Of a stretch of DNA of 64,000 nucleotides, positions 8,811-51,999 are shown one piece after another; within the stretch, counting starts at the first letter, position 1, and each line of letters starts with the position of its first letter. The notes under the pieces are model-generated. The model was not told the DNA's origin. It saw only the letters and a list, made by a program, of their open reading frames with translations, and did not search any database. The position numbers and the translations under genes were made by a program. This stretch comes from Octopus vulgaris (Eukaryota). The stretch lies in assembly GCA_951406725.2 (NCBI GenBank), contig OX597835.1, positions 42,594,001 through 42,658,000 on the forward strand. The letters are read 5' to 3'.

Positions 8811-9260
8811 GAGGATATTGTTGCAAAGAGATAAACATTCGTGAAAAATGGAATCTTTATGAATGGGACAAAAAGTTCCAGAGCAGAGCAGACATTCTTA
8901 TCAATGGTACCAGGAAAAACCTTGGTAGCTTCAGACCAGAGATTCTGACACCGATTCCAACACCTCAATGAAGCTAGACTCTACAATATTTTACTAAGCT
9001 GGTCTTTTAGACATCTGCTATAGAATCTGTTTGAAACTAAATCAGATGAAACATTCTATCCATGCTTCAAATTTTATTTTGCTATCTTGCTGTCAGGAAT
9101 TTTGGTAAGCTTTCCTTGTGTTTAGAACCAAAAAGAGAAGGAAAAGAATATATGCTATTTTTGTTGGGTTTTTTTTTTTGTCATGTCTTTATATGAAAAC
9201 TTTTTTATCATGCTGTATTTTTCGAAATTTACATGAGGTTCTTTGAAATTTATTTTTCAG

Positions 9261-9439
9261 TACCAATATGGGCTATCATACTAATTTGTGCGGGAGTTTT
9301 GCTTTTCTTGGTGTGTGCAGCTTATTGTTGCTGCAAACGTATTTGCCGCAGGAGAAAGAAGAAAGATGGCAAAAAGGGGCTAAAAGGAGCAGTTGACCTC
9401 AGAAGTGTGCAGATTCTAGGCAATTCCATCAAAGAAAAG
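9261..9439 (+). CDS. Syt1: Synaptotagmin-1 exon: transmembrane helix, Cys cluster, basic juxtamembrane segment
   Basis: tttttcag acceptor and AAG|gtgagg donor; 179 nt, starts phase 1, ends phase 0. Encodes xPIWAIILICAGVLLFLVCAAYCCCKRICRRRKKKDGKKGLKGAVDLRSVQILGNSIKEK, typical of molluscan Syt1. Confidence 0.95.
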
Positions 9440-9966
9440 GTGAGGGGCTTCGATTAGTTTATCTTCTTTCTCAATCTGTCAATCGGATTTGTTTGTTAAT
9501 TAAATTAACTGTAATTAACAGATTATTCTTATCAGCTTTCCAATATATATATATAAATCCTTAAATCCTTAAAAATGTTTTAGCCCGAAGGCCGCGGCCA
9601 TGCTGGGGCACCACTGTGATATATATACAAAAAATATATACATATATTAATATAGTTATATACACGATGATGTTGATATATACATAAACATATATCTATA
9701 TCTGTCTATATACATATACACACACTATATATATATAGACATACATATTTATACAAAATAATTAATGTGGCTAGATGCAATTCAAAATCAAAAAGAAAAT
9801 AATTCACTGTCATTAAAAATGTATCCTATAATGTATGTATATATATATATACATATATATATATATAATACACACACATATACATATATACTCTTATATA
9901 TACATATACATATATATATATATATATATAATACACACACATATACATATATACTCTTATATATAC

Positions 9967-17393: not shown

Positions 17394-17976
17394 TATATAT
17401 ATATACATGCACATATACAGATTAATACACACAATCATATATATAAATGCATACACATGTATATAGATTAATACACATGCACATACACACACATTCGGAT
17501 AAAACACATGCATACAAATATATATAAATACACAGACACATATACAAATATATACACATACATATAAATTAAACACTCTCACATGCATTTAAATGCATAC
17601 ACACTCACACATGTATATAGGTAATTACATATACACATGAAGTTATATACCAGTGGTACCTACAGTGTTTCCGCTTCGGATCCTTCTCCTTTCCTGTGCC
17701 TGTCCAATATCAACCAAAACCAACACACACACACACACACGCATTCATAGACATAAGGACATATCTGTGAAGTTGTCTATTGTGTGGTACCTTCACCGTT
17801 CCCAACATCTTGGATCCTACTCCTCCGCTATGTCTGTTCGACACGTAAAACCCAGACTGCATGTTTTGTCTGCATTGCATCTTGTTATTTCATCTAACAC
17901 CAGTTTTTGTTCTTTTTCCATCTGGCTGACACATTACTTGTCCTTTGGAACTGCAATTATTGTTGATTTTGCCAAG

Positions 17977-18102
17977 GTGCAGCCGGACTTAGAGGAGCTG
18001 CAAATGAATATGGAAGAGAATGAAGATGCTGAAAGTACAAAATCTGAAGTAAAATTAGGGAAACTCCAATATTCAATGGACTACGATTTTCAGAAAGGCG
18101 AG
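17977..18102 (+). CDS. Syt1: Synaptotagmin-1 exon: linker and start of C2A (alternative start at 17983 removes VQ)
   Basis: gccaag|GTGCAG|CCG tandem acceptors and GAG|gtaagc donor; 126 nt, phase 0/0. VQPDLEELQMNMEENEDAESTKSEVKLGKLQYSMDYDFQKGE. Confidence 0.95.
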
Positions 18103-18794
18103 GTAAGCACAAACGATTTAATTTTACCAAAATATCTCATATTTCAGAAGTGTTTTCCGGTTTTTTTTTCCAACAGACAATAGGTGTAGGAGTAGCTGTG
18201 TGGTAAGTATTCTAATAACATGAGCTAATCCATAGAATAGAAATCTATGGAAACTCACATGCCTGACAACTGGTGTTGGTTTGTTTACGTCCCTGTTACT
18301 TAGCGGTTCAGCAAAAAAAGACACTGACAGAATAAGCACCAAGCTTTAAAAAGAAACAAACTGTGGGGGTCGATTCGTTCGACTAAAAATTTTTCATGGT
18401 GGTACTCCAGCATGGCCGCAATCAGATGGCTGAAACAGATTAAAAGATAAAAAGGAAAAAAAAATGGATTTATAGGCGCAGGAGTGGCTGTGTGGTAAGT
18501 AGCTTGCTTACCAGCCACATGGTTCCCGGTTCAGTCCCACTTTGTGGCACCTTGGCCAAGTGTCCTCTACTATAGCCTCGGGCCGACCAAAGCATTGTGA
18601 GTGGATTTGGTAGATGGAAACTGAAAGAAGCCCGTCATATATATGTATGTGTGTGTGTATGTGTTTGTGTGTCTGTGTTCGTCCCCCCCCCCAACATCAC
18701 TTGACAAACGATGCTGGTGTGTTTACGTCCCCATAACTTAGCAGTTCGGCAAAAGAGCCCGATAGAATAAGTACTAGGCTTACAAAGAGTAAGT

Positions 18795-28250: not shown

Positions 28251-29461
28251 TACACACACAAGCATGTGCATATGCCTTTGTGTTTGTATTTGTCCCCCAC
28301 AAGACTTCGTAACTGGTGTTGATTTCTTTAGAACCCTATAACTTAGGGGTTTGGCAGAAGATACCAATAGAATGAGTACCAGGGTTCGTTTTTCCTTTTT
28401 CTTTTCTATTTTTTGTTTACATTGTTTTGGACTTGACCTGATCAGAGAGATATCATAATGAAATGAGGGCTTCATGAGCAACCCCACTTTCTCTAAGAGT
28501 AAAATAGTCTGGAATTGTCCAAATTGTAGTTCATTCGGTGCTTGAAGCATCATTGGATTTCTTTTTCTTGTTTGAAGATTTCTTTAACTAAAACCCTTCC
28601 AGGTGACATCCCAGCTTGAATGAAGTTTAATGATTGAAATGAATAAAAGATAAAAAGATAGAAGCTAAGATATTGTATCAATGGTTAAACAATCGCTGTG
28701 GACGGATTGATTGATTGATACTCGCGACAAGAGTAACTTGGGATACTCCACATCCACAACAAATCAGAGAGGAGTATCAGCATTATCTTCTATCTTTATC
28801 TTTTACTTGTTTCAGTCATTGGACTGTGGCCATGCTGGGGCACCGCCTTATGTTGATAATATTCCTATAATATTCTTTTCATTTTTTATTTTCCCTCTCT
28901 CTTACTCTCCTTACCTCTCTTGCTCCCTTGCTCCATCCATCCCTTCTCTTTCTCTCCCTCCCTCCCTCTCTATCTTTCCTTCCCTACTTCCCTCCATCCA
29001 TCACTTCTCTCCCTCTCTCCATTCCTCACTTCTTTCTCTCTCTCACTCTCCACCTCTCCTGCTTTCTCTATCTCTCTCTCCCTCTTTTCCCACCTTCTCT
29101 ATCCCTTTCCCTTTCCACAGTCTACCTCTCACCACCCCTCAGCTCAGCCTCAGCTAACAACTCTCTCTCCCTCTCTCTCTCTCTATTCCTCACTTCTTTC
29201 TCTCTCTCACTCTCCACCTCTCCTGCTTTCTCTATCTCTCTCTCTCTCCCTCTTTTTCCACCTTCTCTATCCCTTTCCCTTTCTCTTTCCACAGTCTACC
29301 TCTCACCACCCCTCAGCTCAGCCTCAGCTAACAACTCTCTCTCTCTCCCTCTTTTTCCACCTTCTCTATCCTTTTCCCTTTCCACAGTCTACCTCTCACC
29401 ACCCCTCAGCTCAGCCTCAGCTAACAACTCTCTCTCTCTCCCTCTTCTCTCTCTTCTCCAG

Positions 29462-29629
29462 CTAACAGTAAATGTAATACAGGCTGCCGACCTACCTGGG
29501 ATGGATATGTCTGGGACGTCTGACCCATACGTCAAAGTCTATCTAATGCCCGACAAAAAGAAGAAATTTGAAACAAAAGTCCATCGGAAAACACTGAATC
29601 CAGTATTTAATGAATCCTTCACATTTAAG
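29462..29629 (+). CDS. Syt1: Synaptotagmin-1 exon: C2A (Ca2+ loop 1, SDPYVK, KKKK)
   Basis: Long CT tract plus ctccag acceptor, AAG|gtaagt donor; 168 nt. [56 protein letters not shown]. Confidence 0.97.
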
Positions 29630-33232: not shown

Positions 33233-33409
33233 AACGTACCTTATGCTGATATTACGGGTAAGACGCTAATATTTGCGATCTACGATTTTGATCGCTTTTC
33301 AAAGCATGACCAAATTGGTCAAGTCCAAGTTCCAATGAATTCTATAGATCTTGGATCAGTAATTGAAGAATGGAGGGATCTCACCAGTCCTGATAATGAT
33401 GCTGAGAAA
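33233..33409 (+). CDS. Syt1: Synaptotagmin-1 exon: C2A C-terminal half (YDFDRFSKHD loop 3)
   Basis: ctcttgcag acceptor, AAA|gtaagt donor; 177 nt. NVPYADITGKTLIFAIYDFDRFSKHDQIGQVQVPMNSIDLGSVIEEWRDLTSPDNDAEK. Confidence 0.97.
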
Positions 33410-33968
33410 GTAAGTTTTGGTTTTTCTTTTACTTCCACACATCATATTTTTATTTATCATTTGTATATTTAATTAGTGAATTAACAAATTATCTGTATTA
33501 ATAAGTCGTGTTAATAAAGTAAGTTCAGTGTGTGTGTATATTTGTGAGTGTACATGTTCATATGTAAGGGTGTGTGTGTGTGTGTGTGTGTGTGCATGTG
33601 TGTATGCAATGTTCATATATTTAGTGTATGTAGTAAGTGTATATGTCCATGAGCATAGTGCATGTGTGTTGGTGGGTGAGTGTGTATGTGTGTGTATCTG
33701 TGTGTGTGTGTTTGTGTATGTGTGTGCTCAATTGTGTTTTATCCTTTAGTCATGAGGGAGAGCTGTGCCCAAGACTCTTCACTTGCTCTCCCTTCTTTAA
33801 AAATGGCAATGTGGCATTTGACAGACATTCGGCCAAACAGTGAGTATAAAGTTAAAAAAAATATAACCAAAAACCAAAAAAAACAAAATTTTTTTAAATG
33901 ACCAAATCTACTTTAAGCTTTCAGTTGTGTTCAATAGATGACCTGTGGTCAAACTTTTTATTTTATAG

Positions 33969-34262
<294 letters not shown>

Positions 34263-34328
34263 TAATATGCTAGGCCACTGGTTTTAATTGATTAATATCA
34301 ATTTCTACCCTTATTCAATTTTATATAC

Positions 34329-34360
<32 letters not shown>

Positions 34361-34779
34361 GAATGCATTGTCCATTGACATAGATCCTGTGACAATTATC
34401 TTGTAACTGTGGATGACATTAGGGAGCCTAAACAGTGAAAGACATTTACCCAAGGTCCAAATAATTACTTACATAGATCGTTTAAGATAATATTACATGA
34501 AAATGGGGGATTTGAGGCTTTAATAGACGTTCACTACATTTGTTTCTGCACCACACACCAGCTGAGTTTATATTCATATGCTATTATACAAGATCAGTCT
34601 TTAGAATTACTATTATATAGTTAAATATTTTTCAGCAACAGCAGCTGTGTATGGGTGCTTCACTGGGTGGAATATACCCCACAGTAGGATAACATGTGAT
34701 AACCAAATAACAATCGTAAAAACTTTTAAATGAATGTTATAAGGATTTTACCCAAATAATACTATATATTTATATATAT

Positions 34780-35088
34780 CACTGATCACTGTGACCGACC
34801 AGGCTATCAGATGTTGCTACACATCACTGGTCACAATACGCTTTGCACTGTTTTAGCCTTCAAATGACGCCACCCCGCTGGCTAAGCGAGCAGGCCAACA
34901 GAAGAAAGTGTGAGAGAAAGTTGTGACAAAAGTGTACAGCAGGGATCGCCACCAACCCCCTGCCAGAGCTTCGTGGATCTTTAGGTGTTTTCGCTCAATA
35001 AACACTCACAACATCCGGTCTGGGAATCGAAACCACGATCCTACAACCATGAGTCCGCTGCCCTAACCGCTGGGACATTGCGCCTCCA
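34780..35088 (-). mobile_element. SINE family D (ggaggcgcaatggcccagtggttagggcagcgg head)
   Basis: Related copies at 40600-40970(+) and 47015-47306(-); tRNA-like head. Confidence 0.8.
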
Positions 35089-38000
35089 TATATATATATA
35101 TATAATGAAATGAGTTTATTAATTATGAAGAAGTTATTATTGGTTTGTAAACAGAAATTCTCTTGACAACTTTTTTACTGTGGTTTGTGAACAACTGTTG
35201 TTTCTTAACTCTACACTAAGCTAGTTAATGAAAACAAAACACTAAGCTTAATATTTTGTAGCATTTAGTTGTATCAAGCTAAGTTTTGAGATCAAATCCC
35301 TTGAAAGTACATTTGGCCTTTCTATGGTCAATAAACTATGGTCATTTACTTCAGTCAGCTTAGGATTTATCAGCCTCAGTTGGTACTTCACTGACTGTTG
35401 GCATTTGTTGATATCTCTGTTTGGCAGCTTTGGTTGGTACTTATCAGTCTTGGTTAATATTTTTGACTGACAAAGGCAGCAAGCTAGCAGAAATGTTAGC
35501 ATGCCGGACAAAATGCTTAGCAGCATTTCGTCTGTCTTTACGTTCTGAGTTCAAATTCCGCAGAGGTTGACTTTGCCTTTCATTCCTTGGGGGGGGGGCG
35601 ATATATTAAGTACCAGTTGCGTACTGGGGTCGATCTAATCGACTGCCCCCCCTCCCCCAAAAGTTTGGGCCTTCTGCCTAGAGCAGAATAGAATATTTTT
35701 GACTGACAACTTCAAAACGTCACTGATTATCAACCTTGACTGGTACTTCACCGACTGTCAGCCTTTGTTAATATCTCTGCCTGGTAACTATAATTGGTTC
35801 TTCCTCAGCCTTGGTTGATACCTGTGATTGACAGCCATGGTTTGGTACATCACTGAAGGGGAAAACAACTCTGATTTCTAAAGTTCTATTGTCTACAAGC
35901 TATTCTCACTTATGAAAAAGACTTTCGAAAGTAAAACATACAATAAAACCCAGAACAGGATCTCCGAAGTCAATCCACTATTACACAATTCTAGCAACTT
36001 CTTGTGGCAACACTTGTACCAAATTATATCTTACCTTGCTTGTATTACACTAGTGAATGTTGTTGTCTATCTCAGGTTCAGCTCTGATCAAATGAACTTA
36101 TAATGAATGTTCCAGATGTGACCATCCTGTCTTTTTGTATATATAATATTAAATTACCTTAAATGTCCTTCCTTCTTTAAAGAAAATAGTGAGTGATTTG
36201 AGGGGATTTAGTTTATATCTCTAGCAGGTTCAAAGACTTCTTAGAGGCTCCCTCATAAAAACTTAACTAGTGCTGTATTAAGAAGGTAGCACCTGATATC
36301 TGAACAGCGTTGTTATTGTTTGTTGTTTGTTCCTTTTCGAGTCATGCCTGGCTCTTAGGGGCCAGTTCCCCAGTTTCATTGGCGTATAGGTTCCCCACCT
36401 GGACAGGATGCCAGTCCATCACAGGAGAGCTGCTAGATGCAGGAGGAAAGAGTGAGAGAAAGTGGTGGTGAAAGAGTCAGCAGAAGTTTTCCATTACCTT
36501 CTGCTGGAGTCATGTGGTGTTTTGCTCATAAACACACACATCGCCTAGTCTGAGATTTGAACCCGCATCCCTCAACTGCAAATCCACTGCTCTAACCACT
36601 AGGCCATGTGCCTCCATCTGAACAGCATTAGGTTCTACAAAACAAATTCCAAAGATGGCAACACAAGAGTCCTCTAATACTCAAGAATGTTGTAGACCAG
36701 AATAATATATTGGCAGAAATTCTGTCAAATATTCCACCAATTTTTGCCAGAAGTCAACAGGAATCATTAATATAAGTAAATGACAAGGCTGTGACCTTGA
36801 CATTGAGGAGTTTGTTTGACAATCACATCGTTTGGGGTTCAATTCTACTACACAGTACTTTGAACAAAATATTTTCTCCCATACCCCTGAATGACCAAAA
36901 GTCTTACAAATGAAATTGAGTTGATGGAAACTAAGAGGAAGCCTATCGGATGTTCTGTTCCTGTTGAGTTGTGGTTCTACTTTCCTGATTTTCTTTCTGT
37001 TAGTCTCAAAGATTCTAACAAAGGTCCAGGATGCTTCCCTCCCATGCACCAATCTCAGGAGTCCTACAGGGACCATAGATGTTGCCCATCTTCATAACAG
37101 TCTTGAAGGCTCTGCATAAAGGCTTTTTTGCTTCTACCTGATGTCAGAGGAATGAGAAAATGGTTATGAAAGTTGGCCTTCCATCCACCTGTCTCAGAGC
37201 CCCTGAAATAGTTCATCTTCTGACTCTTTCTCTTCATGTGCTTTGCCTACAGGAATTGGCAGTTGTGACCCTCCACGTTGGAGTCCAGAGATTCAGCAGT
37301 AGTTTCCTGTTGTCATCTACCTATCTATTCACAGTATCTGCAAAGGTGCCTGGCTTAGGAGTTAGGATATTTGGCTCGTGACTGTGAGGTCATCAGTTCA
37401 ATTCTTGACAGCACATTGTGACCTTGAGCAAGACACTTTACTTCATGTTGCTCCAGTCTACTCAGCTTGCAAAAATGAGTAGTACCTGTATTTCAAAGGG
37501 GCCACATTCTGTGTCATGTTGAATCTCCCTGAGAACTACATTAAAGGTACACGTGTCTGTGGAATACTCAACCACTTGCACATTAATTTCAAGAGCAGGC
37601 TCTTCGGTTGATTAGGTCAACTGGAACCCTCGTCGTTGTAACTGATGGAGTGCCAGTTATTTACGGTTTATTTTTCTAGTCCCTTGCTCTCCTTAACTTA
37701 TCCTTGAGACCCAGGACTTTTATAACTCTTAGGCAGTAGGACTGGTTCACATGACATGAAAGCATATCCCTACACAGCTGGACCTATGTAACTCATGTCT
37801 AGGGGGCCATCCCCACACCCTCTGAGTCCTGTACAACTCAAACAGTAATTGGAACCTTTGACAAGCATCACCACTCTGGGCCAGAACAGACCTGTGAGGA
37901 GTACTGACCAAGGTGTAACTTCATACTCCCGCCCCCCAAAAAACCCCCCAAAACCCCTCACCATTGGATGCAATTTAATGCCTTCCCCAGGACATCCTCT

Positions 38001-39560
38001 CATTCACACAAAGAATAAAAAAGGAAGAAAAAAATCTGAGTCCATTATACAGCAATATTTCCCAGAAGAAACTTTTGTCTTGGAGAAGAAATGTGAACAT
38101 CATTGAATTTCATCGATCTTTCCTCATAATTATGAAATGGACCAATGTGTAAGGAATCAATACGATGCAGCACATATTGTACAAATGGTAAAGTGCCACA
38201 CATAGTTTTATGATGACTGGTTTGATTGTCTTTTATTGCAGTGTTCAAATCTTGCCTGTCACCCACCCCATCCCTGGATTAATAAAATATGTTAAAATTT
38301 ATTCAAATCTGCAAGATGAATATTGGTGTTGTTTAACCCTAGGTAAGGATCGAATAAGTAGAAATATGATCAAAAGCATTCCAGCCTTGACCCTCTCAGC
38401 TTTTTCCAGAATGTAAGGGATCACAGGACCACATTATCTAACACAGGCACAGGAGTGGCTGTGTGGTAAGAAGCTTACTTCCCAACCACAAGGTTCTGGG
38501 TTCAGTCCCACTGCATGGCACCTTGGGCAAGTGTCTTCTTTTATAGCCCCAAGCCAACCAAAGCCTTGTGAGTGGATTTGGTAGACGGAAACTGAAAGAA
38601 GCCTGTCGTATGTATACGTGTCTATCTATGTGTCTGTGTGTCATTGTGTTTGTCTCTCACCACTGCTTGACAGCCAGTGCTGGTCTGTTTACATCCCCGT
38701 AACTTAGCGGTTCAGCAAAAGAGACTGATACAATAAGTACCAAGTTTAAGGGATTGATACATTTAACTTGAAAATCCTTCAAGGTGGTGCCCCAGCATGG
38801 CCGCAGTCCAATAACTGAAACAAGTAAAAGATAAAAGATAATATTTTTTTGAAGTGGCTGAGTGTAATCTGAGCGAAGTTTGGCTTTTATTTCTTGCAAG
38901 GCACAGAACCACATTGAAACTTGCTCACTGGTTTCAAAAGAATGTTGCATTGTGCCAAGGTAATAAGGAATCAATAGCCAGTTGCACAATAACCGTTTCT
39001 CTGATTCTGTTTGGTTGGACCAACAGAATAATGTTATTTGACAACAGTTCCTGTCTTTTATTGATTACAGTTCTAATTTTAGAAGCTCTGTCTGTAACCA
39101 TATTCTTGCAAGAATAGATTTAACATATCTTTCCTTTATTTTTATTTTGCTTGTTTCAATCATTGGCCTGTGACCATTCTGGGGCCTCACCTTGAAGGGT
39201 TTAGTCGAACAAATTGACATTAGTATTTCTTTGTTTCTTCTACATCTGGTACTTAGTCTATCAATCTCTTTTGGGGAACTGTTAAGTTACTAGGCTGTAA
39301 ACAGGCCAAAACCAGTTGTCTATTCGTGGTGGTTGTCAAACAATAGCACAAACACACACACAAAAGCACACACACACACACATATATATATATACGTGCA
39401 GGCATGGCTGTGTGGTAAGAAGCTTGCTTCCCAACCACATGGTTCCAGGTTCAGTCTTACTGCGTGGTACCTTGGGCAAGTGTCTTCTCTATAGCCTCAA
39501 AGTGACCAAAGCCTTGTGAATGGATCTGGTAGACAGAAACTGAAAGAAGCCCATTGTGTG

Positions 39561-39595
<35 letters not shown>

Positions 39596-41210
39596 ATTTA
39601 TGTATGTATACTTATGTAGGTGTGTCTTTGTGTTTGTCTCCATTGCCACTTGACAATTGGTGTTGGTTTGTTTATGTTCCCTGTAACATAGCAGTTCAGC
39701 AAAAGAAATCAATAGAATAAATACAAGTTCTAGGTTCAATACGTTTCACCAGAACCCTTCAAGGGAGTTCTCCCTGATATGGCTGCAGTCCAGTGAGTGA
39801 AACAAGTAAAAGAGAAGTCATTTTTTTTTAAGACATTAGCGTATGATTTGTGGGAGACTTAGCTGCTATTTCTATGAAAGCACATGGCTTAGTGGTTAGA
39901 ATATTTGTCTCACAATCGTTAGGTCATGAGTTTGATTCCAGGTGGCGCACTGAGTGCTTAAGCAAGAATTTATTTCACATTGCTTCAGTTCACTCAGCTG
40001 GCAAAAATGAGTAAAACCTGTAATTCAGAAAGCCCCCCCCCCAGTCACTTTCTGTGTCATGCTGAATCTCCTTGAGAACTACGTTAAAGGTATGTGTATC
40101 TGTGGAGTACTCAGCCACTGGGATGTAAATCTCATGAGCAGGCTGTTCTGTTGACCAGATAAACTGAAACACTTATCATTGCATCCAATGAAATGCCAGT
40201 TAAGTTAACACATAAAACACGATGGGCCACGATTGTGGCCATCAGGCACAGGTCAACAGGTCACAATTGTGGCCCAGATAGATGCATTATGGGTGTTTGT
40301 TGGGGTCTAATGTCACTCAAACGCTCTGATACCCCACAGAATGCAAGAGGACTAATAGTTCAACTTATGACTTTTCAGATGATGTAAAAGTTGCCACCGT
40401 TAGATACTAAGAAGATATTTTAATTATTTTTTGTTTTTTATGTGGTGCATGGTTGTCTTATTTTCATAAAATGTGCTCAGCAGTCCATGCTATGTGAGTG
40501 CAAATCCCAGTGCGTTATGGGTTAGGTTAAGCTGTTATTTCCATCAAGTTGAGCAACCATATAAACACTCCCTCATTTCAGAATCTAATTAGACTTCCCT
40601 GGCCCAGTGGTTAGGGCAGCGGATTCACGGTCGTAGGATCGTGGTTTCGATTCCCAGACCGGGCGTTGTGAGTGTTTATTGAGCGAAAACACCTAAAGCT
40701 CCACGAGGCTCCGGCAGGGGATGGTGGTGATCCTTACTGTACTCTTTCACCACAACTTTCTCTCACTCTTACTTCCTGTTTCTGTTGTACCTGTATTTCA
40801 AAGGGCCGGCCTTGTCACTCTCTGTGTCACGCTGAATATCACCGAGAACTACGTTAAGGGTACACGTGTCTGTGGAGTGCTCAGCCACTTACACGTTAAT
40901 TTCACAAGCAGGCTGTTCCGTTGATCGGATCAACCGGAACCCTCGTCGTCGTAACCGACGGAGTGCTTCCACATCCAGACTTCCCTGTTCAATTCACTCT
41001 CCTTGTTTCTGGAAGCTTCTCAAAACAACCAGAAGTTCATACTTGACATGTCTATTTTACTTCATCTCACACAATTGATGGGGTTTTTCACTTTAAAAAA
41101 AAATGGATGAAAGACCATCCGTTGGTGCCACTCCCTCTTTGTATTGACACAGAGTCAGTGACTGATCCCCTAATTTGCATTTTTCACCTGAGTATCTTTT
41201 CCTTTACCAG

Positions 41211-41344
41211 ATCCCTACGTCAAAATAACTTTATATCTGGGAAATAAACGACTGAAAAAGAAGAAGACAACCATTAAGAAACATACTTTGAATCCTTACT
41301 TCAATGAATCTTTCACATTTGAAGTTTCTTTTGAACAAATACAG
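41211..41344 (+). CDS. Syt1: Synaptotagmin-1 C2B polylysine exon, copy A (mutually exclusive alternative; not in the ORF track)
   Basis: Branch-like ccctaat plus cttttcctttaccag acceptor, CAG|gtattt donor; 134 nt, phase 1 to 0, no stops. [45 protein letters not shown]. Confidence 0.92.
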
Positions 41345-41599
41345 GTATTTTCGTTGGGAGATCTTCAGCTGCGTCTTTTCAAGATGTCTCGCTGACTTTG
41401 GGGCTCTTACCTTGTTTCCAATGGCTTGCCATATTTGCTACATCCTTCAGCTACAAGCTCAGACTTTGTTCACATTCTTCACGATTATTCTAATCCATTT
41501 TCTTCAGCATTATTTCTTCATCGACAAATGTAGAAATCTGAACATAAAGAATTCCTTCTTTGAAACAGACTCGTTAACGTGTCAAGTGATGAAAAATGT

Positions 41600-41950
41600 T
41601 ACAATGACAATGATGATGATAATGACGATGATGATTATGATAATGACGATGATGACAATGACAATGATGATGATGATGACGATGATGATGACGATGACAA
41701 TGATGATGATGATGATGATGACGATGACAATGATGATAATGATGATGATGATGACGATGATGATGACGATGACAATGATGATGACGATGACAATGACGAT
41801 GACAATGATGATGATGATGATGATGACAATGACGATGATGATGATGATGACGATGACAATGATGATAATGATGATGATGATGATGATAATGATGATGATG
41901 ACAATGACGATGATGACAATGATGTTGGTGTGGCAACGATGACAATGACA
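41600..41950. repeat. (GAT/GAC/AAT)n trinucleotide tract between the two C2B exons (similar tract at 61020-61342)
   Basis: About 350 bp of gatgatgacaat units; yields spurious poly-D/M/H/S ORFs. Confidence 0.97.
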
Positions 41951-42276
41951 GCAATAACAAGAACATTCATTTTGTAAACACTCCAAATAATGGTAATGGA
42001 CAGAGAGGAATTTTGTGTTCAGATTTCTGTGTTTATATGATATACATACATACATATATATATACATATATATATGTGTGTGTTTGGGCTAATATTAATA
42101 CAAGTATGGACTTAACGGAGGTGGCCATGGAAAGAGAGGTGAAGACGTAAGTGGTTAAAATGTATAAAAAAAACAAAGTAACATCCACAAAATGTATAAA
42201 AAAATCAAAGTAACGTCCACAAAGGCTAATACCCCCCACCACTGCCCAACACACACACATGGATGTTTCTCCGGCA

Positions 42277-42506
42277 TTAATCCTTTAGCATTTAAACCAG
42301 CCATATCCAACCCCAAAATTTCTACCTGTTTTATGTTCAAACTGGCCAGATCCAGCCTCTCACACCTATCCTACAATGTAATTCTAAAAATAAACAATCA
42401 TGTCATTGGAATTTCAAATCTACAAGAAAAAGCATAACTAATTCAAAAGAATGGGAATAAAAGAAGATTAACATTTGACAAAGAAATCTGAATACTAAAG
42501 GATTAA
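42277..42506. mobile_element. TTAA-flanked MITE (second family; another copy at 57731-57961)
   Basis: ttaatcctttag... / ...ctaaaggattaa ends; shared internal sequence with 57731-57961. Confidence 0.75.
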
Positions 42507-42845
42507 TCATTGGTTCCAAGTTATTTCTTCAAATATAAGCAAATTGCAAAGAACCAAGCCACCTCTGGTCTCTGTTCACATATTTGTATTAGTATAAAAT
42601 TTTCTTCCAGGTTTTGGGAATTCTTCAACTAATGGCTTTTTGTTTATCTTAATCTGCTCTTTTTATTTTTCATTCCTACCAAACTTCCTCCTGATCTTAC
42701 GACCCAGCAACAAGGCCACCACTTCGTGCATGCGGTGTCTTTGTTGGTTTGTTTTTGTTTTTTTTTTAAAAATCTCCGTTTTCACCTTCTGTCTTCATGT
42801 CTCCTTCAAGCCGCTCTTCTTTGTGCTTCTATTTTTTCAATCTAG

Positions 42846-42979
42846 ATCCTTATGTTAAGATATCTCTGATGCTAAACGGTAAAAGAATTAAGAAGAAGAA
42901 AACCACTATCAAGAAATGTACACTGAATCCATACTACAATGAATCATTTGCGTTTGAAGTCCCCTTTGAACAAATACAG
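42846..42979 (+). CDS. Syt1: Synaptotagmin-1 C2B polylysine exon, copy B (canonical-like)
   Basis: ttttttcaatctag acceptor, CAG|gtataa donor; 134 nt, phase 1 to 0. [45 protein letters not shown]. Confidence 0.95.
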
Positions 42980-45321
42980 GTATAAACCCTTGTCTCCCCC
43001 CCACCCCCGTCCCAATCACCACCAATGTCTACATTACATCTCCTTCCTCCCTCCCAGCCCCCCAACTGTTTACCTTGATTGTCATGTGATTGTAGTAGAA
43101 GTAGTAGTAGTAGTAGTAGTAGCAGCAATGTCACATCTGAAAATGTTGCAAAACTCTTGGAATGTTGATGTGTTCTTTGATTACTTTTTGTGTTACTTTT
43201 CTGCCTTCTTAGAGTTTTTTAAATGCATTCCAAACCATCAATATGGAAATGGTGCACACTTCAAGATGCATGGAAAAACATTATATGCAGCAGATTTCTT
43301 TCTTTTTTGTATTATTTTGTACCATTCTGTTTTTATAGTTTACAAAGACAAATTTAGAATATTGAAACATTTCTGAAAATTCTTTCAGGAATTAATTATA
43401 TTCTAAATTCATAAGTTTGTTTTAAAAGTCCGTTCTACATTTTGAGTCATGTTTTTGTAGTGTTGTGTGCTTAAAATGTTGTCCTAATATTTCTGTCCCC
43501 ATGTGTATAACTTAGTCCTAACAATTCTGTTCCTTCTGTGTGGAGTATACCAAACTGTCCTGTGTGTTTCACCAAAACCTTTCCCACTGTCTTACCTTTA
43601 AGGGTGAAGCTGTTTTTATCTTATTTTCATGTCTCACCAGAGTACCCTGTCCTTTTTAGAGTTCATATATGGTTCTATACAGCACATATATGTTAGGGGT
43701 TTGCCTCATGATCATGAGTTTTATTCCAGGTCTGGGCAGAGCATGGTGTTCTTGAGCAAGGTACTTCTTTTCATGCTGCTTCATGCAATGGCGAGAAGTA
43801 TATTGAGTTCTTCATAACCAGCTGATCTAGCAAGCAGGGCCTCATATCAGTGAGGGGGGCCGGTGCGCATTGATGCCGTCAAGAGGTAGGCCCCGAAACG
43901 GCGCACATTCTCTCCTGATGACCCCATGCACTTGCTAGCTTCCGTTATACGGAGCTTTTAACTGGTAGCACTTGCATGTGCAAGTTGTTTGCAAGACATC
44001 AGCTGAAATTGAGTACCAGCAGAGTACACATACAGCTCCGTCTCTCTCTCTCTCTTTCTTCCTCCCTGTAGCTGTCACATCTTTGATATTCCTCCGAGTC
44101 AACGGTGAATGGGCCAAGGAGGTACCTATATCTGCACACAACTACACAGGCACCTAAAACAACTAGTGAAAGCATGGTACACACTACCAGTATATATTTG
44201 CTTTCCAAGTGTCAGCTACACATATTTTTATATTGTCCTATAACTAAACTCCTATATCATTCCGTACATTTGGATCCCAACATGGTCTCATTTTTAGAAC
44301 CATGTATAGTCCTGTGTTTGTTCCCATAAATTTTCCTATGCCTAAGTCCATGTTGCAGTAATACATCACTTTACAAGGACCTGTTTTATGAGACCCTGGG
44401 TTTATGAGCTTTTACATGTTTTATTTTCTGTTAACCCTCTTGTTACTGTATTTATTTTGAGATGCTCTGTGTTTCCTTCAATTAATTCAAATATAACAAA
44501 GAATTTAGTAAAATAACTTGGTTATCATTCAGCTAGTGTTAGGAACATAAATTGTGACGAAGGTTTGGGTGGAAAATTTTAATTCAAAACTTATGCAAAC
44601 AAGACATTTGTACTCAGAGCCAGAGCCGGTTTTAGCCGGGTTGGTTACAAAAGGGTTAATGAGCTTTCCAGGTCGAAGCGTTCTAACCCAAAAACATGGA
44701 ATTAACGTGTGTTAATTTGTGATGTGTGTGTATAATTTAGAAAAAAACCTATATTAAACAATTCAATAAAGAAAGATGTTATTCACACCATATAGAATTG
44801 TTTCTAGAGGTTTTTCTCTAAATTATATAAATGTATTATATATTGTGAAATTTGATTGAGAATTGCTAAATTGAATTTTTTTCCCTGTAAGTTTGGAATT
44901 ATATTCCCTACTATTATTAATACTATTATATATATATGTGTGTGTGTAAATGAGACTGTGTGTGTGTATTCAATAAGATTTCAATGATATATATATATAT
45001 ATATATATAGCCTTTCACCTTACCGGTGACATGTAAAAACCGTCCGAACGTGGAAGATGCCACGCGCCACTGGCTGGCGTCCATGTCGACATGTAAAACA
45101 CCAACCGATCGTGGTCGTTTGACAGCCGGCTCTGGCCCCTGTGCCGGTGGCACGTAAAAAACCCACTACACTCAGAGAGTGGTTGGTGTTAGGAAGAGCA
45201 TCCAGCTGTAGAAACACTGCCAAATCAGACTGGAGCCTGGTACAGCCTCCATGACTTACCAGACCCAGGTCGAACCGTCTAACCCATGCTAGCATGGAAA
45301 ACGGATGTTAAATGATGATGA

Positions 45322-45358
<37 letters not shown>

Positions 45359-45865
45359 CCTATATTCAGTCTGATATGCTGTCCTGTCTTTAACACTCTC
45401 CATTGTCCTCTATTTGACTAAATATGTTGTCCTATTTCTGAGTCTACATTTTGTCCTATTTCTTTATCCCTATATTTATTGCCCTGTGTTTGGCTGAATA
45501 TATTATCCTATTTTTGACTTCCTATATATATAGAACTGATTCCAGAAGATTTTACTCCAGATGGTGTCTGCATGCATATATATATAAAATATTATATGAG
45601 TAAGATGGAGTGTGAACGTAGAAAATCAATTTACCCACGTAATGGTAGTCAATTTCATGTCTGCTATGCATGTTTCCATTCCTACAACGACCACTGCAAC
45701 TTCATAAGAGTTAAGCACTGATGTCAAAGACGAACCACCAATAGACACCAATGCTAACACAAATTAACAAATTCCAGGAAAATTAATCAATATTGACCTA
45801 AATTAATTTATTCTTGGATGAAATGAATCCCTGTTGAAAGAGAAACTTATTTCCATTTGAAACCT

Positions 45866-47015: not shown

Positions 47016-47344
47016 CACGTGATCATGTGACCGACAGGCCATCAGATGTTGTTACACATCGCTGGTCACAATGCGTTCGCATTGTTTTAGCCTTTGAACA
47101 ACGCCACCCCGCTGGCTAAGCAAGCAGGCCAACAGAATAAAGAGTGGTGAAAGAGTACAGCAGGGATCACCACCCCCTGCCGGAGCCTCGTGGAGCTTTT
47201 AAGGTGTTTTCACTCAATAAACACTCACAACGCCTGGTCTGGGAATTGAAACCGCGATCCTACGACCACAAGTCTGCTGCCCTAACCACTGGGCCATTGT
47301 GCCTCCACACATATACATACATATATACACACACATATATATAT

Positions 47345-48071
47345 ATAATAATGTTCGTCCTTCGGGTTCGAAGATGACCACTGACATCATCTGGTGGAAC
47401 TGCCGCTATGAGACCGGAGGTGGCTGGTGAGGCCAATCCGGGCAAGGAAGCCCCTCCCACAGGTGGAGCAGAAGTGGGTAGGGGCCGTGCTACTGGTGCA
47501 GGCGGCTCTGGCTTTCCGCATCTGGCGTTTCTGCTCTGCTGACCGAATCCGTCCCTCCTCGGCTGTCCCTGCTCCTGTGGTGATTGCGCTGCGCCAGGAT
47601 GAGCGGTCGGCAGCAAGTGTCTCCCAGGTCTCTGTGCCGATGGAGAAGTCTTTGAGAGAGACCTTTGAGACTGTCCTTGAAGCGCTTCTTCTGCCCTCCG
47701 ACTTTGCGTTTGCCCTGGCTGAGTTCACCGTAGAAGAGCTGTTTTGGGATGCGAGTGTCGGACATGCGGGAGACGTGGCCCGCCCATCTCAGCTGGGCCT
47801 TGCGCATGATTGTGATGGTGCTAGGGAGATCTGCCTGCTTCAGAACTTCCGTGTATGGGACTTTGTCCTGCCAGCGGATGTGAAGGAGGTTCCGAAGACA
47901 CCTGGGGTGGAAGTGGTTTATCTGGCGCTCGTGCCTTCGGTAAGCAGTCCACGTCTCGCAGCCGTATAGTAGGGTGGTGAGCTTAGTAGGGTGCCCGGTA
48001 GACTTTCAGCTTGGTGTTGAGGCTGATTCCTCTCCGCTCCCAGACTTTCTTTCGCAGTCTCCCAAACGCGA
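47345..48071 (-). mobile_element. RTE-clade LINE 3' fragment with C-terminal C2H2-like finger
   Basis: AFGRLRKKVW...LRWAGHVSRMSDTRIPKQLFYGEL..GKRKVGGQKKRFKDSLK / WETLAADRSSWR...CSTCGRGFLARIGLTSHLRSH, with frameshifts. Confidence 0.92.
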
Positions 48072-49429: not shown

Positions 49430-51045
49430 AAAGACACAACTGAGAGATCTGCAACCAAGGGATACAATGGCACTTGTCCAGCCCCCAAAACACCTGAAAT
49501 ACCAAAGAGGTGTCATGTCCGAAAAAGGAAAGCACCTTAAAAGCGACAGAAAGCAAGAGGTAAAAGAAAAGAAAAAGAAAACAAACAAAAACTGTTTGGA
49601 AAAAAACAGAAGGGCCCCAGCAAAAGCTACAGGAGTTTCAAGGGCAAAGGCAGGAGCATCTGCAAATTTTTTTCTGCAAGGTAACTGTTGGCATGGCGAC
49701 GATGGTGCAAACTGTTGTTTTGCACATCAGAAGCCCTGCCAAAACCGCATGGGCCCAAGACAACAATCCCTCCCACGAGGGGGAGAAAAAGAAAAAGAAA
49801 AAGAAAAATATCAAAGAAGGAAAAATGGTGCACTGACTACTCCCAAAAGACGATATGCAGATGTAGTGCGCGGTCCAAAAAGGATACTGCATGGCCCAAC
49901 AAATGGCCAGCTTCACCCAGATGTGAGAAGGGCAGCACCTGAACAGCAATCTTTTTTGTGCATGGCACAAATTGTCCAGCAGCTGACCTGGCTACAAACA
50001 CAAAGCTGGAACTACCACCACACAAGGCCACCACCAACAGATGCAGGATGGCCACCACAAACACCAACACACACGTCACAAAAATATTTCTACTGAACGT
50101 AGGAGGGCTGCTGCACGGCAACTGCAAAAGGAAAATCTCGTTCCTGAGAGACCTTGCGGCATGCAATCAAGCTATATGCATGGCACTCATAGAAACACAT
50201 CTTGGACCTGATATAGGGGATGCAGAAATAAACATACCGCAATATGTTGTCATACGCTCAGATAGTAAAGAGAGGAGTCATGGTGGAGTTGCAGTGTACA
50301 TCCAAGATGACCTCATGCCCCAGGTCCTGTTGTCATATTCAAACTCGGTGTGTGACACCCAAATTGTACACATAAGACAACTGAATACTTATTTCTTTAT
50401 TACCCACAAGGGGCTAAACACAGAGAGGACAAACAAACGGATTAAGTCGATTATATCGACCCCAGTGCGTAACTGATACTTAATTTATCGACCCCGAAAG
50501 GATGAAAGGCAAAGTCGACCTTGGCAGAATTTGAACTCAGAACATAATGGCAGACGAAATACGGCTACGCATTTCGGCCGGCGTGCTAACGATTCTGCCA
50601 GCTCGCCGCCTAAAGACAACTGAATATCGTCATAAGTACTACATATCGCCCACCGGATGCCCCAAATCACACAGGCATGTTTGAAGACTGCCTAACAAAA
50701 ATAGGAGAAGTTCTCGCCAAACTGGAACAACAGAATAGTGTATTCTTCATGGGTGACTTTAACTTCCTCAATGTGGAATGTGGAATGCTCCCAGGGATGA
50801 CACACCATCAGCAAGCACAAGCAGAATCCCTGCTCCACCCCACAAACGTCTCTTTCAGGGAGCAAATTGTGCTGCAACCAACAAAGGCAAATAATATACT
50901 GGATCTCTGCTTCACAAACAATATGGACATTATCCATAATGTTAAAGTGATGCCGACATTGGTCTTGGATCACAACATAATAGAGCTGTCTATGTATGGA
51001 CCAAAAGCCCCCGCAGACGCACAACCTATACGAAGCATCCACAAA
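49430..51045 (+). mobile_element. LINE fragment: ORF1 end with Cys/His finger plus ORF2 APE endonuclease, interrupted by a SINE
   Basis: LLNVGGL...MALIETHL...RSDSKERSHGGVAVYI...[SINE]...TYRPPD...FMGDFN...QPTKANNILDLCFTN...LDHNII are APE motifs. Confidence 0.88.
50388..50612 (-). mobile_element. SINE family A inserted in the LINE endonuclease
   Basis: 14-bp TSD aagacaactgaata at 50374-50387 and 50613-50626; removing it restores the frame HIRQLNIVISTTYRPPD. Confidence 0.93.
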
Positions 51046-51999
51046 ACATATATATATATACACACACATATATATATACACATATAGCAAAGAAGTTGTG
51101 TGTTGGTGAGACAATAGCACATACTGCTGTGGAGCCATTTTTGTCTTCCCCAATAACCATTTCTGCCATTGTTCGCCTGCCATCATCAAACTTAAGAAAA
51201 CAGGTCTTCATGTCGTTCTACACATCCATAATAGTGGGAAGGATTTCTGTATCGTGGCTGACATTAAGCTTGCCACAAATTTTCATTGGCAATATTTTCC
51301 ATCAGCTGAGCTGCACAATAGGCTGGTACCTTAACTCCAGCATGACCATCGAATATATATTCCTTTATTAGCCACAAGGGGCTAACACAGAGGGGACAAA
51401 CAAGGACAGGCAAACGGATTAAGTCGATTACATCGACCCCAGTGCGTAACTGGTACTTAATTTATCGACCCCGAAAGGATGAAAGGCAAAGTTGACCTCA
51501 GGACTGGTCAGTAAGGCCATGCGGTAGGCCGAGAGCTGCCGTGTGGGAATCCTCCATTTACACACGCCACCCCTGCGTACTGCTGAGGCCAAAACGAAGG
51601 CCATTCCTCATTCCCAATTCATTATGTTTTTCTGTCTTGTGTGCGTCAAGAAAGTTCCCAAGACAACTTATTCCACAAGATTCTGCACTTGATGGTGTCT
51701 GCATACACCAGAATGCTGCTTGCTTCTCCTCTTAATTAAAAGAGACGAATCAGATTTTTAACGTTTCCACTTTATTTATTGTATATTTAGAAACTGAAGC
51801 AAGCTTTTGTTTACTTTAAAAAATAAAATAAAACGAATCTGTTATCACTGCTTTTAAAAAAAAAGGGGGAGAAACAAAGATTAATTGAAAACACAGAAAA
51901 AAACTTATTCCGTATCAAGTATAATTAAGGCTTCTTCCTCTAGTTTGTTTATCAATCCGGTCCAACATATGAATATCAATTTGATAGGAGTGCTTATGG

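What the first reader, a model, noticed from the sequence alone, without database searches (positions are those of the whole stretch)
41211..42979. Duplicated, mutually exclusive C2B polylysine exons
Seen: two intact 134-nt exons with the same phases, 1501 nt apart. They differ at 9 of 45 residues (T/S, Y/M, G/N, N/G, L/I, H/C, F/Y, T/A, S/P), mostly around the KKKK effector strand, and at many synonymous sites. Including both or neither shifts the frame. Copy A is missing from the ORF track and easy to miss. Known: alternative C2B exons are reported in Aplysia (C2B-alpha/beta) and C. elegans snt-1. Inference: two Ca2+-sensor isoforms with different lipid/SNARE/AP-2 surfaces. The spacing is too wide for steric exclusion, so RNA structure or NMD must enforce the choice.
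Basis: partly seen in the sequence, partly recalled or inferred. Interest (0 to 1): 0.75.

Follow-up and report, generated by a model that had tools for sequence, protein, structure and literature searches.

The report
Two swappable synaptotagmin-1 C2B exons
This octopus gene for synaptotagmin-1, the calcium trigger of nerve signalling, carries two intact side-by-side copies of one small exon, likely used one at a time to make two protein versions; the same old pair is already described in sea slugs, limpets and worms and annotated in a sister octopus, so it is real but not new.

Summary
Confirmed and already known. Exons A (41211-41344) and B (42846-42979) are intact 134-nt alternatives in octopus Syt1 C2B, with 9 of 45 residues different. 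Octopus sinensis RefSeq already has A and B isoforms identical to these. Contigs of two runs (RNA by guess) join the upstream exon to A. The pair matches the Aplysia/Lymnaea alpha/beta exons and the published Lottia and Capitella exons. In 23 chosen species of three phyla, A and B copies separate on a tree, consistent with one old duplication. Steric and U12 exclusion are not supported. Candidate intron stems beat shuffles, but 4 of 45 genomic controls are as strong. Side results: exon B is likely A-to-I edited at the codon that insects edit, and octopus A has four lineage-specific residues. No squid or cuttlefish A copy was found. The scan's notes hold nothing earlier on this exon pair.

The parts
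33969..34086 (+). Upstream constitutive exon U of Syt1 (start of C2B; ends with the first base of the split Asp codon, rat D309)
   Evidence: joined to A in contigs
41211..41344 (+). Alternative exon A (type ..G-[NTS]-K-R-L.., F339); matches the Aplysia form in record AAA03567/P41823
   Evidence: 100% identical to O. sinensis isoforms X2 and X4; U-A junction in contigs of runs X2 and X11; tree
42846..42979 (+). Alternative exon B (type M-L-N-G-K-R-[IV], C333, Y339); matches the Aplysia form in record AAQ91785
   Evidence: identical to O. vulgaris X1 and O. sinensis X1/X3/X5
41345..42845 (+). 1501-nt GT-AG intron between A and B; B has a short AG-free zone (33 nt), so its branch point is likely close to B
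42908..42910 (+). Ile codon ATC (octopus I340, rat 330) in exon B: likely A-to-I recoding site (I to V), same column as the insect edit
   Evidence: inferred from protein pairs; insect variants in Craxton 2010 file S9; codon position
42950..42952 (+). Ala codon GCG (octopus A354, rat 344): genomically fixed here; Thr in genome-based Sepia models and Ala in 10 of 14 other proteins of that cluster, likely an editing site there
41228..41284 (+). Octopus-specific codons in A: ACT (T315), CTG (L318), CAT (H333); T and H are one A-to-G change from the usual Ala and Arg. S348 at 41327 is the fourth
   Evidence: run X11 shows T>A at 41238, giving the usual Gln
41040..41588 (+). Candidate nested stems around exon A: 41040-41051 with 41577-41588, and 41150-41161 with 41389-41400 (unproven)
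   Evidence: flanks single-copy
41526..42034 (+). Candidate 24-bp stem 41526-41549 with 42011-42034, enclosing the GAT microsatellite and crossing the outer A stem (unproven)
41604..41924 (+). GAT/GAC microsatellite in the A-B intron
42276..42507 (.). High-copy repeat with 17-nt terminal inverted arms (MITE-like; label from general knowledge)
40600..40966 (+). High-copy SINE-like repeat upstream of A; 40788-40808 is complementary to both donor regions, judged chance

Best explanation
Exons A and B are two intact copies of the central C2B exon of octopus synaptotagmin-1, likely from one duplication older than the split of molluscs, annelids and nemerteans, and likely spliced one at a time so that one gene makes two equal-length Ca2+-sensor versions predicted to differ in SNARE and membrane contacts. 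Shown: anatomy, frames, the U-A junction in contigs, both isoforms in RefSeq of O. sinensis, both types in 23 chosen species. Inferred mechanism: the U donor chooses between two ordinary U2 acceptors, probably under cell-type splicing factors, as for C. elegans snt-1a/b. A+B transcripts get a stop 110 nt before the last junction and would be removed by NMD. Skipping both would escape junction-dependent NMD, so splicing itself must favour including one exon. Intron stems that loop A out may help (about 0.3). The Ca2+ ligands and the polybasic lysines are shared, so the isoforms likely differ in tuning, through the hairpin before KKKK, position 333 and Y/F339 at the SNARE primary interface. Exon B is likely further recoded by A-to-I editing (I340V).
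For: Anatomy and frames. O. sinensis X2/X4 carry A at 100%; X1/X3/X5 and O. vulgaris X1 carry B. In one search (4 runs, RNA by guess), contigs of 2 runs join U directly to A (X2 with 0 other letters; X11, another organism, with 2 per exon); a third (X9) fits a spliced end. Both types in 23 of 23 species picked for having both (19 molluscs, 2 annelids, 2 nemerteans). A and B fall on opposite sides of one branch, support 98/90, and 95 after dropping the two columns used for labelling. Order is A then B in 6 of 6 gene models that read both and in both tandem loci among 33 metagenome loci. Craxton 2010 S1 marks Capitella and Lottia Syt1 'mutually exclusive alternative exons: C2B'. Lymnaea clones are about 50:50 alpha/beta (PMC7419297). 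PMC7498268 names K313, K321, R322, K324-K327 as polybasic and Y339 as primary interface.
Against: No raw reads were available; all laid runs are contigs and none is on record as RNA. The A-T, U-B and B-T junctions were not seen directly, and the absence of A-B joins was not tested. Of 26 cephalopod-type proteins, 24 carry B and only the two O. sinensis models carry A; no decapod A copy was found (15 of 30 members of that cluster were listed). Octopus A has 4 residues absent from 22 other A copies, against 1 for B, which could mean relaxed selection. The tree has 44 columns, is unrooted, its bootstrap had not settled, and single exons of a crinoid and horseshoe crabs fall on the A side. No regulator was identified and no function was measured. 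One run (X1) showed only an unspliced contig over A.
Confidence: 0.82

Rival explanations
1. Exclusion is enforced mainly by competing RNA stems (docking/selector type): stems around A loop it out when B is used, and a crossing stem in the A-B intron forms when A is used.
For: Two nested helices flank octopus A (sum -31.5 kcal/mol; 0 of 1000 shuffles); the outer one has pairing probability 0.99 in a local fold. A 24-bp helix in the A-B intron (1 of 500 shuffles) crosses it. Unnamed loci L034 and L039 share a 24-nt intron element after A that pairs upstream of B in both, with a C-G to U-A change (0 of 200 and 12 of 200 shuffles). L039 also has a stem around A (1 of 200).
Against: Against real genomic controls the octopus signal is modest: 21 of 626 positions reach the nested pair; 4 of 45 masked windows reach the same z and 3 of 45 the same best helix. 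The whole A region folds no better than shuffles (z -1.0; 16 of 100), and the inner stem is absent from that fold. The L034/L039 pairing has no octopus counterpart (143 of 200), and L034 lacks a strong stem around A (128 of 200). The tests were post hoc. No diverged cephalopod intron was available for covariation.
Confidence: 0.3
2. Copy A is a decaying or nearly silent relic in cephalopods, and B plus RNA editing supplies the diversity.
For: Octopus A is the joint most divergent A copy (5 changes from the A consensus). No decapod A among the proteins seen.
Against: Open frame and intact splice sites; 18 silent against 9 replacement codon differences from B; spliced contigs in two organisms; 20 listed runs from 12 studies hold half or more of its words (kind of run not on record); RefSeq isoforms.
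Confidence: 0.08
3. Steric hindrance or U2/U12 splice-site incompatibility prevents joining A to B.
For: None beyond these being known causes of mutual exclusion (general knowledge).
Against: 1501-nt intron; AG-free zone before B only 33 nt, with 44 AG dinucleotides between 41420 and 42843; all three donors are GT and match the recalled U12 consensus at only 4-5 of 8 positions.
Confidence: 0.02
4. The two copies are an assembly artefact or a recent octopus duplication.
For: None.
Against: 72% nucleotide identity; flanks unrelated and single-copy; each copy groups with its counterpart in other phyla.
Confidence: 0.01

Closest known systems
Octopus sinensis RefSeq synaptotagmin-1 isoforms X1/X3/X5 (exon B) and X2/X4 (exon A)
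   Same: Both exon peptides identical to the window's.
   Different: Nothing at protein level. These are automatic annotations; only the B form was listed under the O. vulgaris name.
Aplysia Syt I C2B-alpha / C2B-beta (Nakhost et al. 2004, PMID 15056279; not held, seen only as a citation; content recalled) and Lymnaea Syt-alpha/beta (PMC7419297)
   Same: Same exon, same two types; nine-residue difference (recalled for Aplysia). Records P0188/P0190 are A type and P0036/P0189 are B type.
   Different: At position 344 Aplysia has G in A and T in B (T358), recalled as the residue behind the protease-resistance difference. Octopus has T in A and A in B, so that contrast is not kept.
Lottia gigantea and Capitella Syt1 mutually exclusive C2B exons (Craxton 2010, PMC2823689)
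   Same: Same exon of 45 residues; var1 is A type, var2 is B type.
   Different: No cephalopod is in that collection's species list. The passages seen do not test one origin across phyla.
C. elegans snt-1a / snt-1b
   Same: Alternative copies of the same C2B exon with cell-specific expression (review PMC5851683); one copy has C333/Y339 like B.
   Different: The other copy is far more divergent and 2-3 residues longer. Shared origin with the mollusc pair was not tested; these rows were not in my tree.
Insect Syt1 C2B RNA editing
   Same: Edited Drosophila and Anopheles variants have V for I at the column of octopus I340.
   Different: Insects in that file have a single exon and use editing in place of a second exon; cephalopods likely have both.

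Membership tests
Synaptotagmin-1 orthologue | TM plus C2A plus C2B with Syt1 sequence; best solved matches are Syt1 | tested here: met
   P0006 exons map to the window and next stretch; best PDB hits Syt1, E 1.7e-141, against Syt7 1e-85
Tandem duplicated mutually exclusive exons | Homologous, same length and phase, intact splice sites, each restores the frame alone | tested here: met
Tandem duplicated mutually exclusive exons | Each copy is found spliced into transcripts | tested here: met
   A: U-A junction in contigs of 2 of 4 runs and RefSeq X2/X4. B: cDNA- and contig-derived proteins of related cephalopods; no B contig was laid here
Tandem duplicated mutually exclusive exons | Both-in and both-out transcripts are absent or degraded | not testable with these tools
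   Only contigs were offered, which drop rare forms. Both-in predicted NMD target; both-out not
Aplysia C2B-alpha/beta exon pair | A groups with one Aplysia copy, B with the other; same order | tested here: met
   short unrooted alignment
Aplysia C2B-alpha/beta exon pair | Isoforms differ in SNAP-25 binding and protease resistance (recalled) | not testable with these tools
   Needs recombinant proteins; the recalled key residue differs in octopus
Docking-site/selector RNA-structure MXE (Dscam, 14-3-3 type; definition recalled) | One conserved intronic site pairs alternately with a selector beside each exon, with covariation | tested here: inconclusive
   Candidate stems exist but are modest against genomic controls; the one site pairing with both donors is SINE consensus
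Steric-hindrance MXE (tropomyosin type; definition recalled) | Branch point of the downstream exon within about 50 nt of the upstream donor | tested here: not met
   AG-free zone 33 nt, 44 intervening AGs; branch point not mapped
U2/U12 incompatibility MXE | Mixed major and minor splice sites | tested here: not met
A-to-I recoding site in exon B | A in DNA and G in RNA of the same individual | tested here: inconclusive
   Protein pattern fits but no matched DNA/RNA reads

The most novel reading that the evidence does not exclude
The pair is one ancient duplication, perhaps as old as protostomes, switched by competing intron stems. Cephalopods stack ADAR recoding on it: B is edited at the same Ile codon that insects edit, and octopus A's derived Thr315 and His333 are edited back to the ancestral Ala and Arg. 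This would give a combined splicing-plus-editing code on the SNARE- and membrane-facing surface of the fast Ca2+ sensor.
Probability: 0.12. Interest if true: 0.6.

Novelty: already known. Interest (0 to 1): 0.25.

Why it matters
Syt1 C2B triggers fast transmitter release, and a two-exon switch kept across three phyla suggests two useful tunings of it. That is already on record for gastropods and an annelid, and annotated in O. sinensis. What this check adds is modest: support for one origin, the point that NMD covers only half of the exclusion, candidate stems for a minigene test, and a likely editing site shared with insects inside exon B. Squid and octopus synapses are classic preparations, so isoform- and edit-specific tests are feasible.

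Tried and rejected
No RNA holder listed: none of the 24 runs is on record as RNA. Laying three guessed-RNA runs (X2, X11, X9) on 42240-43085 gave no contig over exon B. The runs were found with exon A, contigs drop variants, and human-like contigs are filtered out, so this says nothing on B's level. Run X18 covered 42479-42995 with 4 other letters and 1 gap, too close for conservation analysis. A and B were never laid in one stretch, so A-B joins are untested. A 'docking site' at 40788-40808 that pairs with both donors (-29.0 and -20.3 kcal/mol) was rejected: 21 of 397 shuffles reach it, it was the best of 20 query windows, and its 20-mer has 18,849 exact copies in the genome. No local hairpin for the exon B edit site: z +0.55, 143 of 200 shuffles fold as well. 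Restorative editing of A was not seen: contigs of X2 and X9 show the genomic letters; the second X11 difference in A was not displayed. The search for short A-type fragments gave 50 proteins, none with the octopus A residues. No octopus match to the L034/L039 intron element. Steric and U12 models rejected. Papers not held: Nakhost 2004, Mathews 2007, the 2023 octopus temperature-editing paper, Zhou 2015. PMC4384741 passages had nothing on this exon. PMC12934611 uses human numbering, where Y339 is the neighbouring invariant Tyr, so I did not use it as evidence. No structure or complex prediction was run; nine substitutions in a solved fold would not be resolved by it.

Full report
Gene and anatomy. 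The window holds most of a synaptotagmin-1 gene on the + strand of a 2.8-Gb genome. Its proteins are identical to O. vulgaris and O. sinensis records over the exons in question. Coding exons map near 9260-9445, 17974-18114, 29459-29629, 33236-33410, 33969-34086 (U), then A and B; the terminal coding exon T begins 367 nt beyond the window end. A and B are both 134 nt, AG/GT, and 97/134 identical. Of 44 whole codons, 9 change the residue, 18 differ silently and 17 are identical. Only these two copies lie at the locus, out of 11 genome matches among 29 candidates.

Frames. U-A-T and U-B-T give the same length of protein. U-A-B-T stops inside B, 110 nt before the last junction, which by the usual 50-55-nt rule (general knowledge) is an NMD substrate. 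U-T stops 29 nt after the last junction. If T is the last exon (3' UTR introns were not examined), that form escapes junction-dependent NMD and would make a sensor with half a C2B. NMD can therefore explain only the loss of double inclusion.

Is A used? O. sinensis RefSeq X2 and X4 carry A at 100% (120 of 503 hits listed). Of 24 runs listed for A, 20 from 12 studies hold at least half of its words; none is on record as RNA. I laid 4 of them on 33900-41560 (32 of about 25,000 pieces shown). One contig of X2 runs 33969-34083 then 41208-41344 with no other letters; CAG fits either side, so this is the 34086-41211 junction. A contig of X11, a different organism, does the same with 2 other letters per exon. 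An X9 contig fits a spliced 5' end. X1 shows only an unspliced contig. The letters beyond 41344 were not shown, so the A-T junction rests on the RefSeq models. B use rests on proteins: 24 of 26 cephalopod-type proteins carry B, including Doryteuthis cDNA records.

Age. From the 280 proteins fetched I picked 23 named species for which both forms were present: 19 molluscs (octopus, gastropods, bivalves, a chiton), 2 annelids, 2 nemerteans. A copies share G319 and L323, mostly with F339 and a non-Cys 333; B copies share G320, I/V323, Y339 and mostly C333. On a 44-column tree with 20 further rows, A and B lie on opposite sides of one branch (98/90), and support is 95 when the two columns used for labelling are dropped. 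The tree is short and unrooted, the bootstrap had not settled, and single exons of a crinoid and two horseshoe crabs fall on the A side, so one origin is consistent with the data, not proven. Order is A then B in 6 of 6 gene models that read both and in L034 and L039, the 2 of 33 metagenome loci with tandem copies. No decapod A was found: 15 of 30 members of that cluster were listed, all B, and 50 short fragments held none with octopus A residues.

What changes in the protein. Rat numbers come from the alignment to 2r83, anchored on recalled D172/D309. The differences are at 315, 317, 319, 320, 323, 333, 339, 344 and 348. PMC7498268 (passages) lists K313, K321, R322 and K324-K327 as polybasic, all unchanged here, and uses Y339 as a marker of the SNARE primary interface, where A has Phe. 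The Ca2+ ligands (recalled: 303, 309, 363, 365, 371) lie in U, the shared split codon and T. Position 333 is in Ca2+ loop 2 (recalled). So tuning of SNARE and membrane contacts is the likely effect; it is inferred. Octopus A has four residues absent from 22 other A copies (T315, L318, H333, S348); B has one (A344).

Editing. Two unnamed 293-residue octopod-type proteins differ only by I340V in exon B and E396G, both reachable by one A-to-G change. Against the genome-based Sepia model, 14 other proteins of that cluster differ beyond residue 100 only by A-to-G-type changes, with I340V in 7 of 14 and T354A in 10 of 14. Octopus has Ala at 354 in the genome. Edited Drosophila and Anopheles variants carry V at the same column (Craxton 2010 file S9; text on recoding). 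No matched DNA and RNA were seen, so this is inference. T315 (ACT) and H333 (CAT) in A are one A-to-G step from the usual Ala and Arg, but contigs of X2 and X9 show the genomic letters.

How exclusion is enforced. Steric and U12 models fail. A site upstream of A that pairs with both donors is SINE consensus and was rejected. Two nested helices flank A (0 of 1000 shuffles, but 21 of 626 real positions), and a 24-bp helix in the A-B intron crosses the outer one (1 of 500). The flanks of A are single-copy. Against 45 masked control windows, 4 are as structured, and the whole A region folds at z -1.0. In L034 and L039 a conserved 24-nt element after A pairs upstream of B with one compensatory change, but octopus has no equivalent (143 of 200). 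I therefore favour regulated acceptor choice plus NMD of double inclusion, with RNA structure as an open helper.

What is known. Craxton 2007 (PMC1976326, passages) notes duplicate alternative exons in Aplysia and C. elegans and editing in insects. Craxton 2010 (PMC2823689: passages, rows of file S1, parts 1, 3 and 4 of file S9) marks the exons as mutually exclusive in Capitella and Lottia. PMC7419297 (passages) reports both forms at about 50% in Lymnaea CNS clones; its Fig. S6 on isoform effects was not read. PMC5851683 (passages) gives cell-specific snt-1a/b expression. PMC12295206 (passages) describes a temperature-linked C2A edit in octopus Syt1. Nakhost 2004 was not held; what I say of it is recalled. 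Ten searches listed no paper whose title or abstract start concerns the cephalopod exon pair; a four-term search on an RNA-structure mechanism for it returned none. The library lacks most subscription papers and I did not open cephalopod editing tables, where I340V may be listed. The scan's notes hold nothing for this stretch or for this exon pair, only similar exon pairs in otoferlin and SNAP-25, which I did not check.

Verdict. A real, old, already known mutually exclusive exon pair. Interest 0.25.

Noticed in passing
L034:1417-2470 and L039:1606-2343: Two unnamed animal loci carry tandem A and B exons (introns 786 and 470 nt) with a shared 24-nt intron element that pairs upstream of B in both, with a compensatory change; a better lead for the exclusion mechanism than the octopus stems.
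   Followed up: partly
window 17974-17982: O. sinensis isoforms differ by two residues (VQ) at the start of this exon (P0006 against P0007), fitting two acceptors 6 nt apart; recalled as the known VQ splice choice of invertebrate Syt1.
   Followed up: partly
window upstream of 9260 (exons not found in the window): O. sinensis X5 lacks 15 residues of the luminal part, suggesting a further cassette exon; the first coding exons were not found in the window by exact motif search.
   Followed up: no
window 33314-33316: Codon ATT for I248 in C2A, recalled as the temperature-dependent octopus editing site; other likely edits at I233, E396 and, in decapods, S111, I264, I369, I411.
   Followed up: partly
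window 40788-40808 and 37479-37500: A SINE consensus segment (18,849 exact genomic copies) is complementary to the end of exons A and B and their donors; two sense copies lie in the U-A intron. Judged chance, but it could still affect splicing.
   Followed up: yes
L007 (G000:C22:42937132-42937254, - strand): Another synaptotagmin-like C2B exon about 300 kb downstream on the same contig; it and seven other paralogous exons with a tblastn hit show no tandem copy within 1.5 kb.
   Followed up: partly
window 47260-48005 and 49943-51087: Fragments that look like reverse-transcriptase and endonuclease frames of LINE-type elements in the 21-kb intron after B (labels from general knowledge).
   Followed up: no
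window 43349-45823: The masked stretch just downstream of B was among the most helix-rich control windows (z -5.0); it could hold a partner strand for editing of B or only residual repeats.
   Followed up: no
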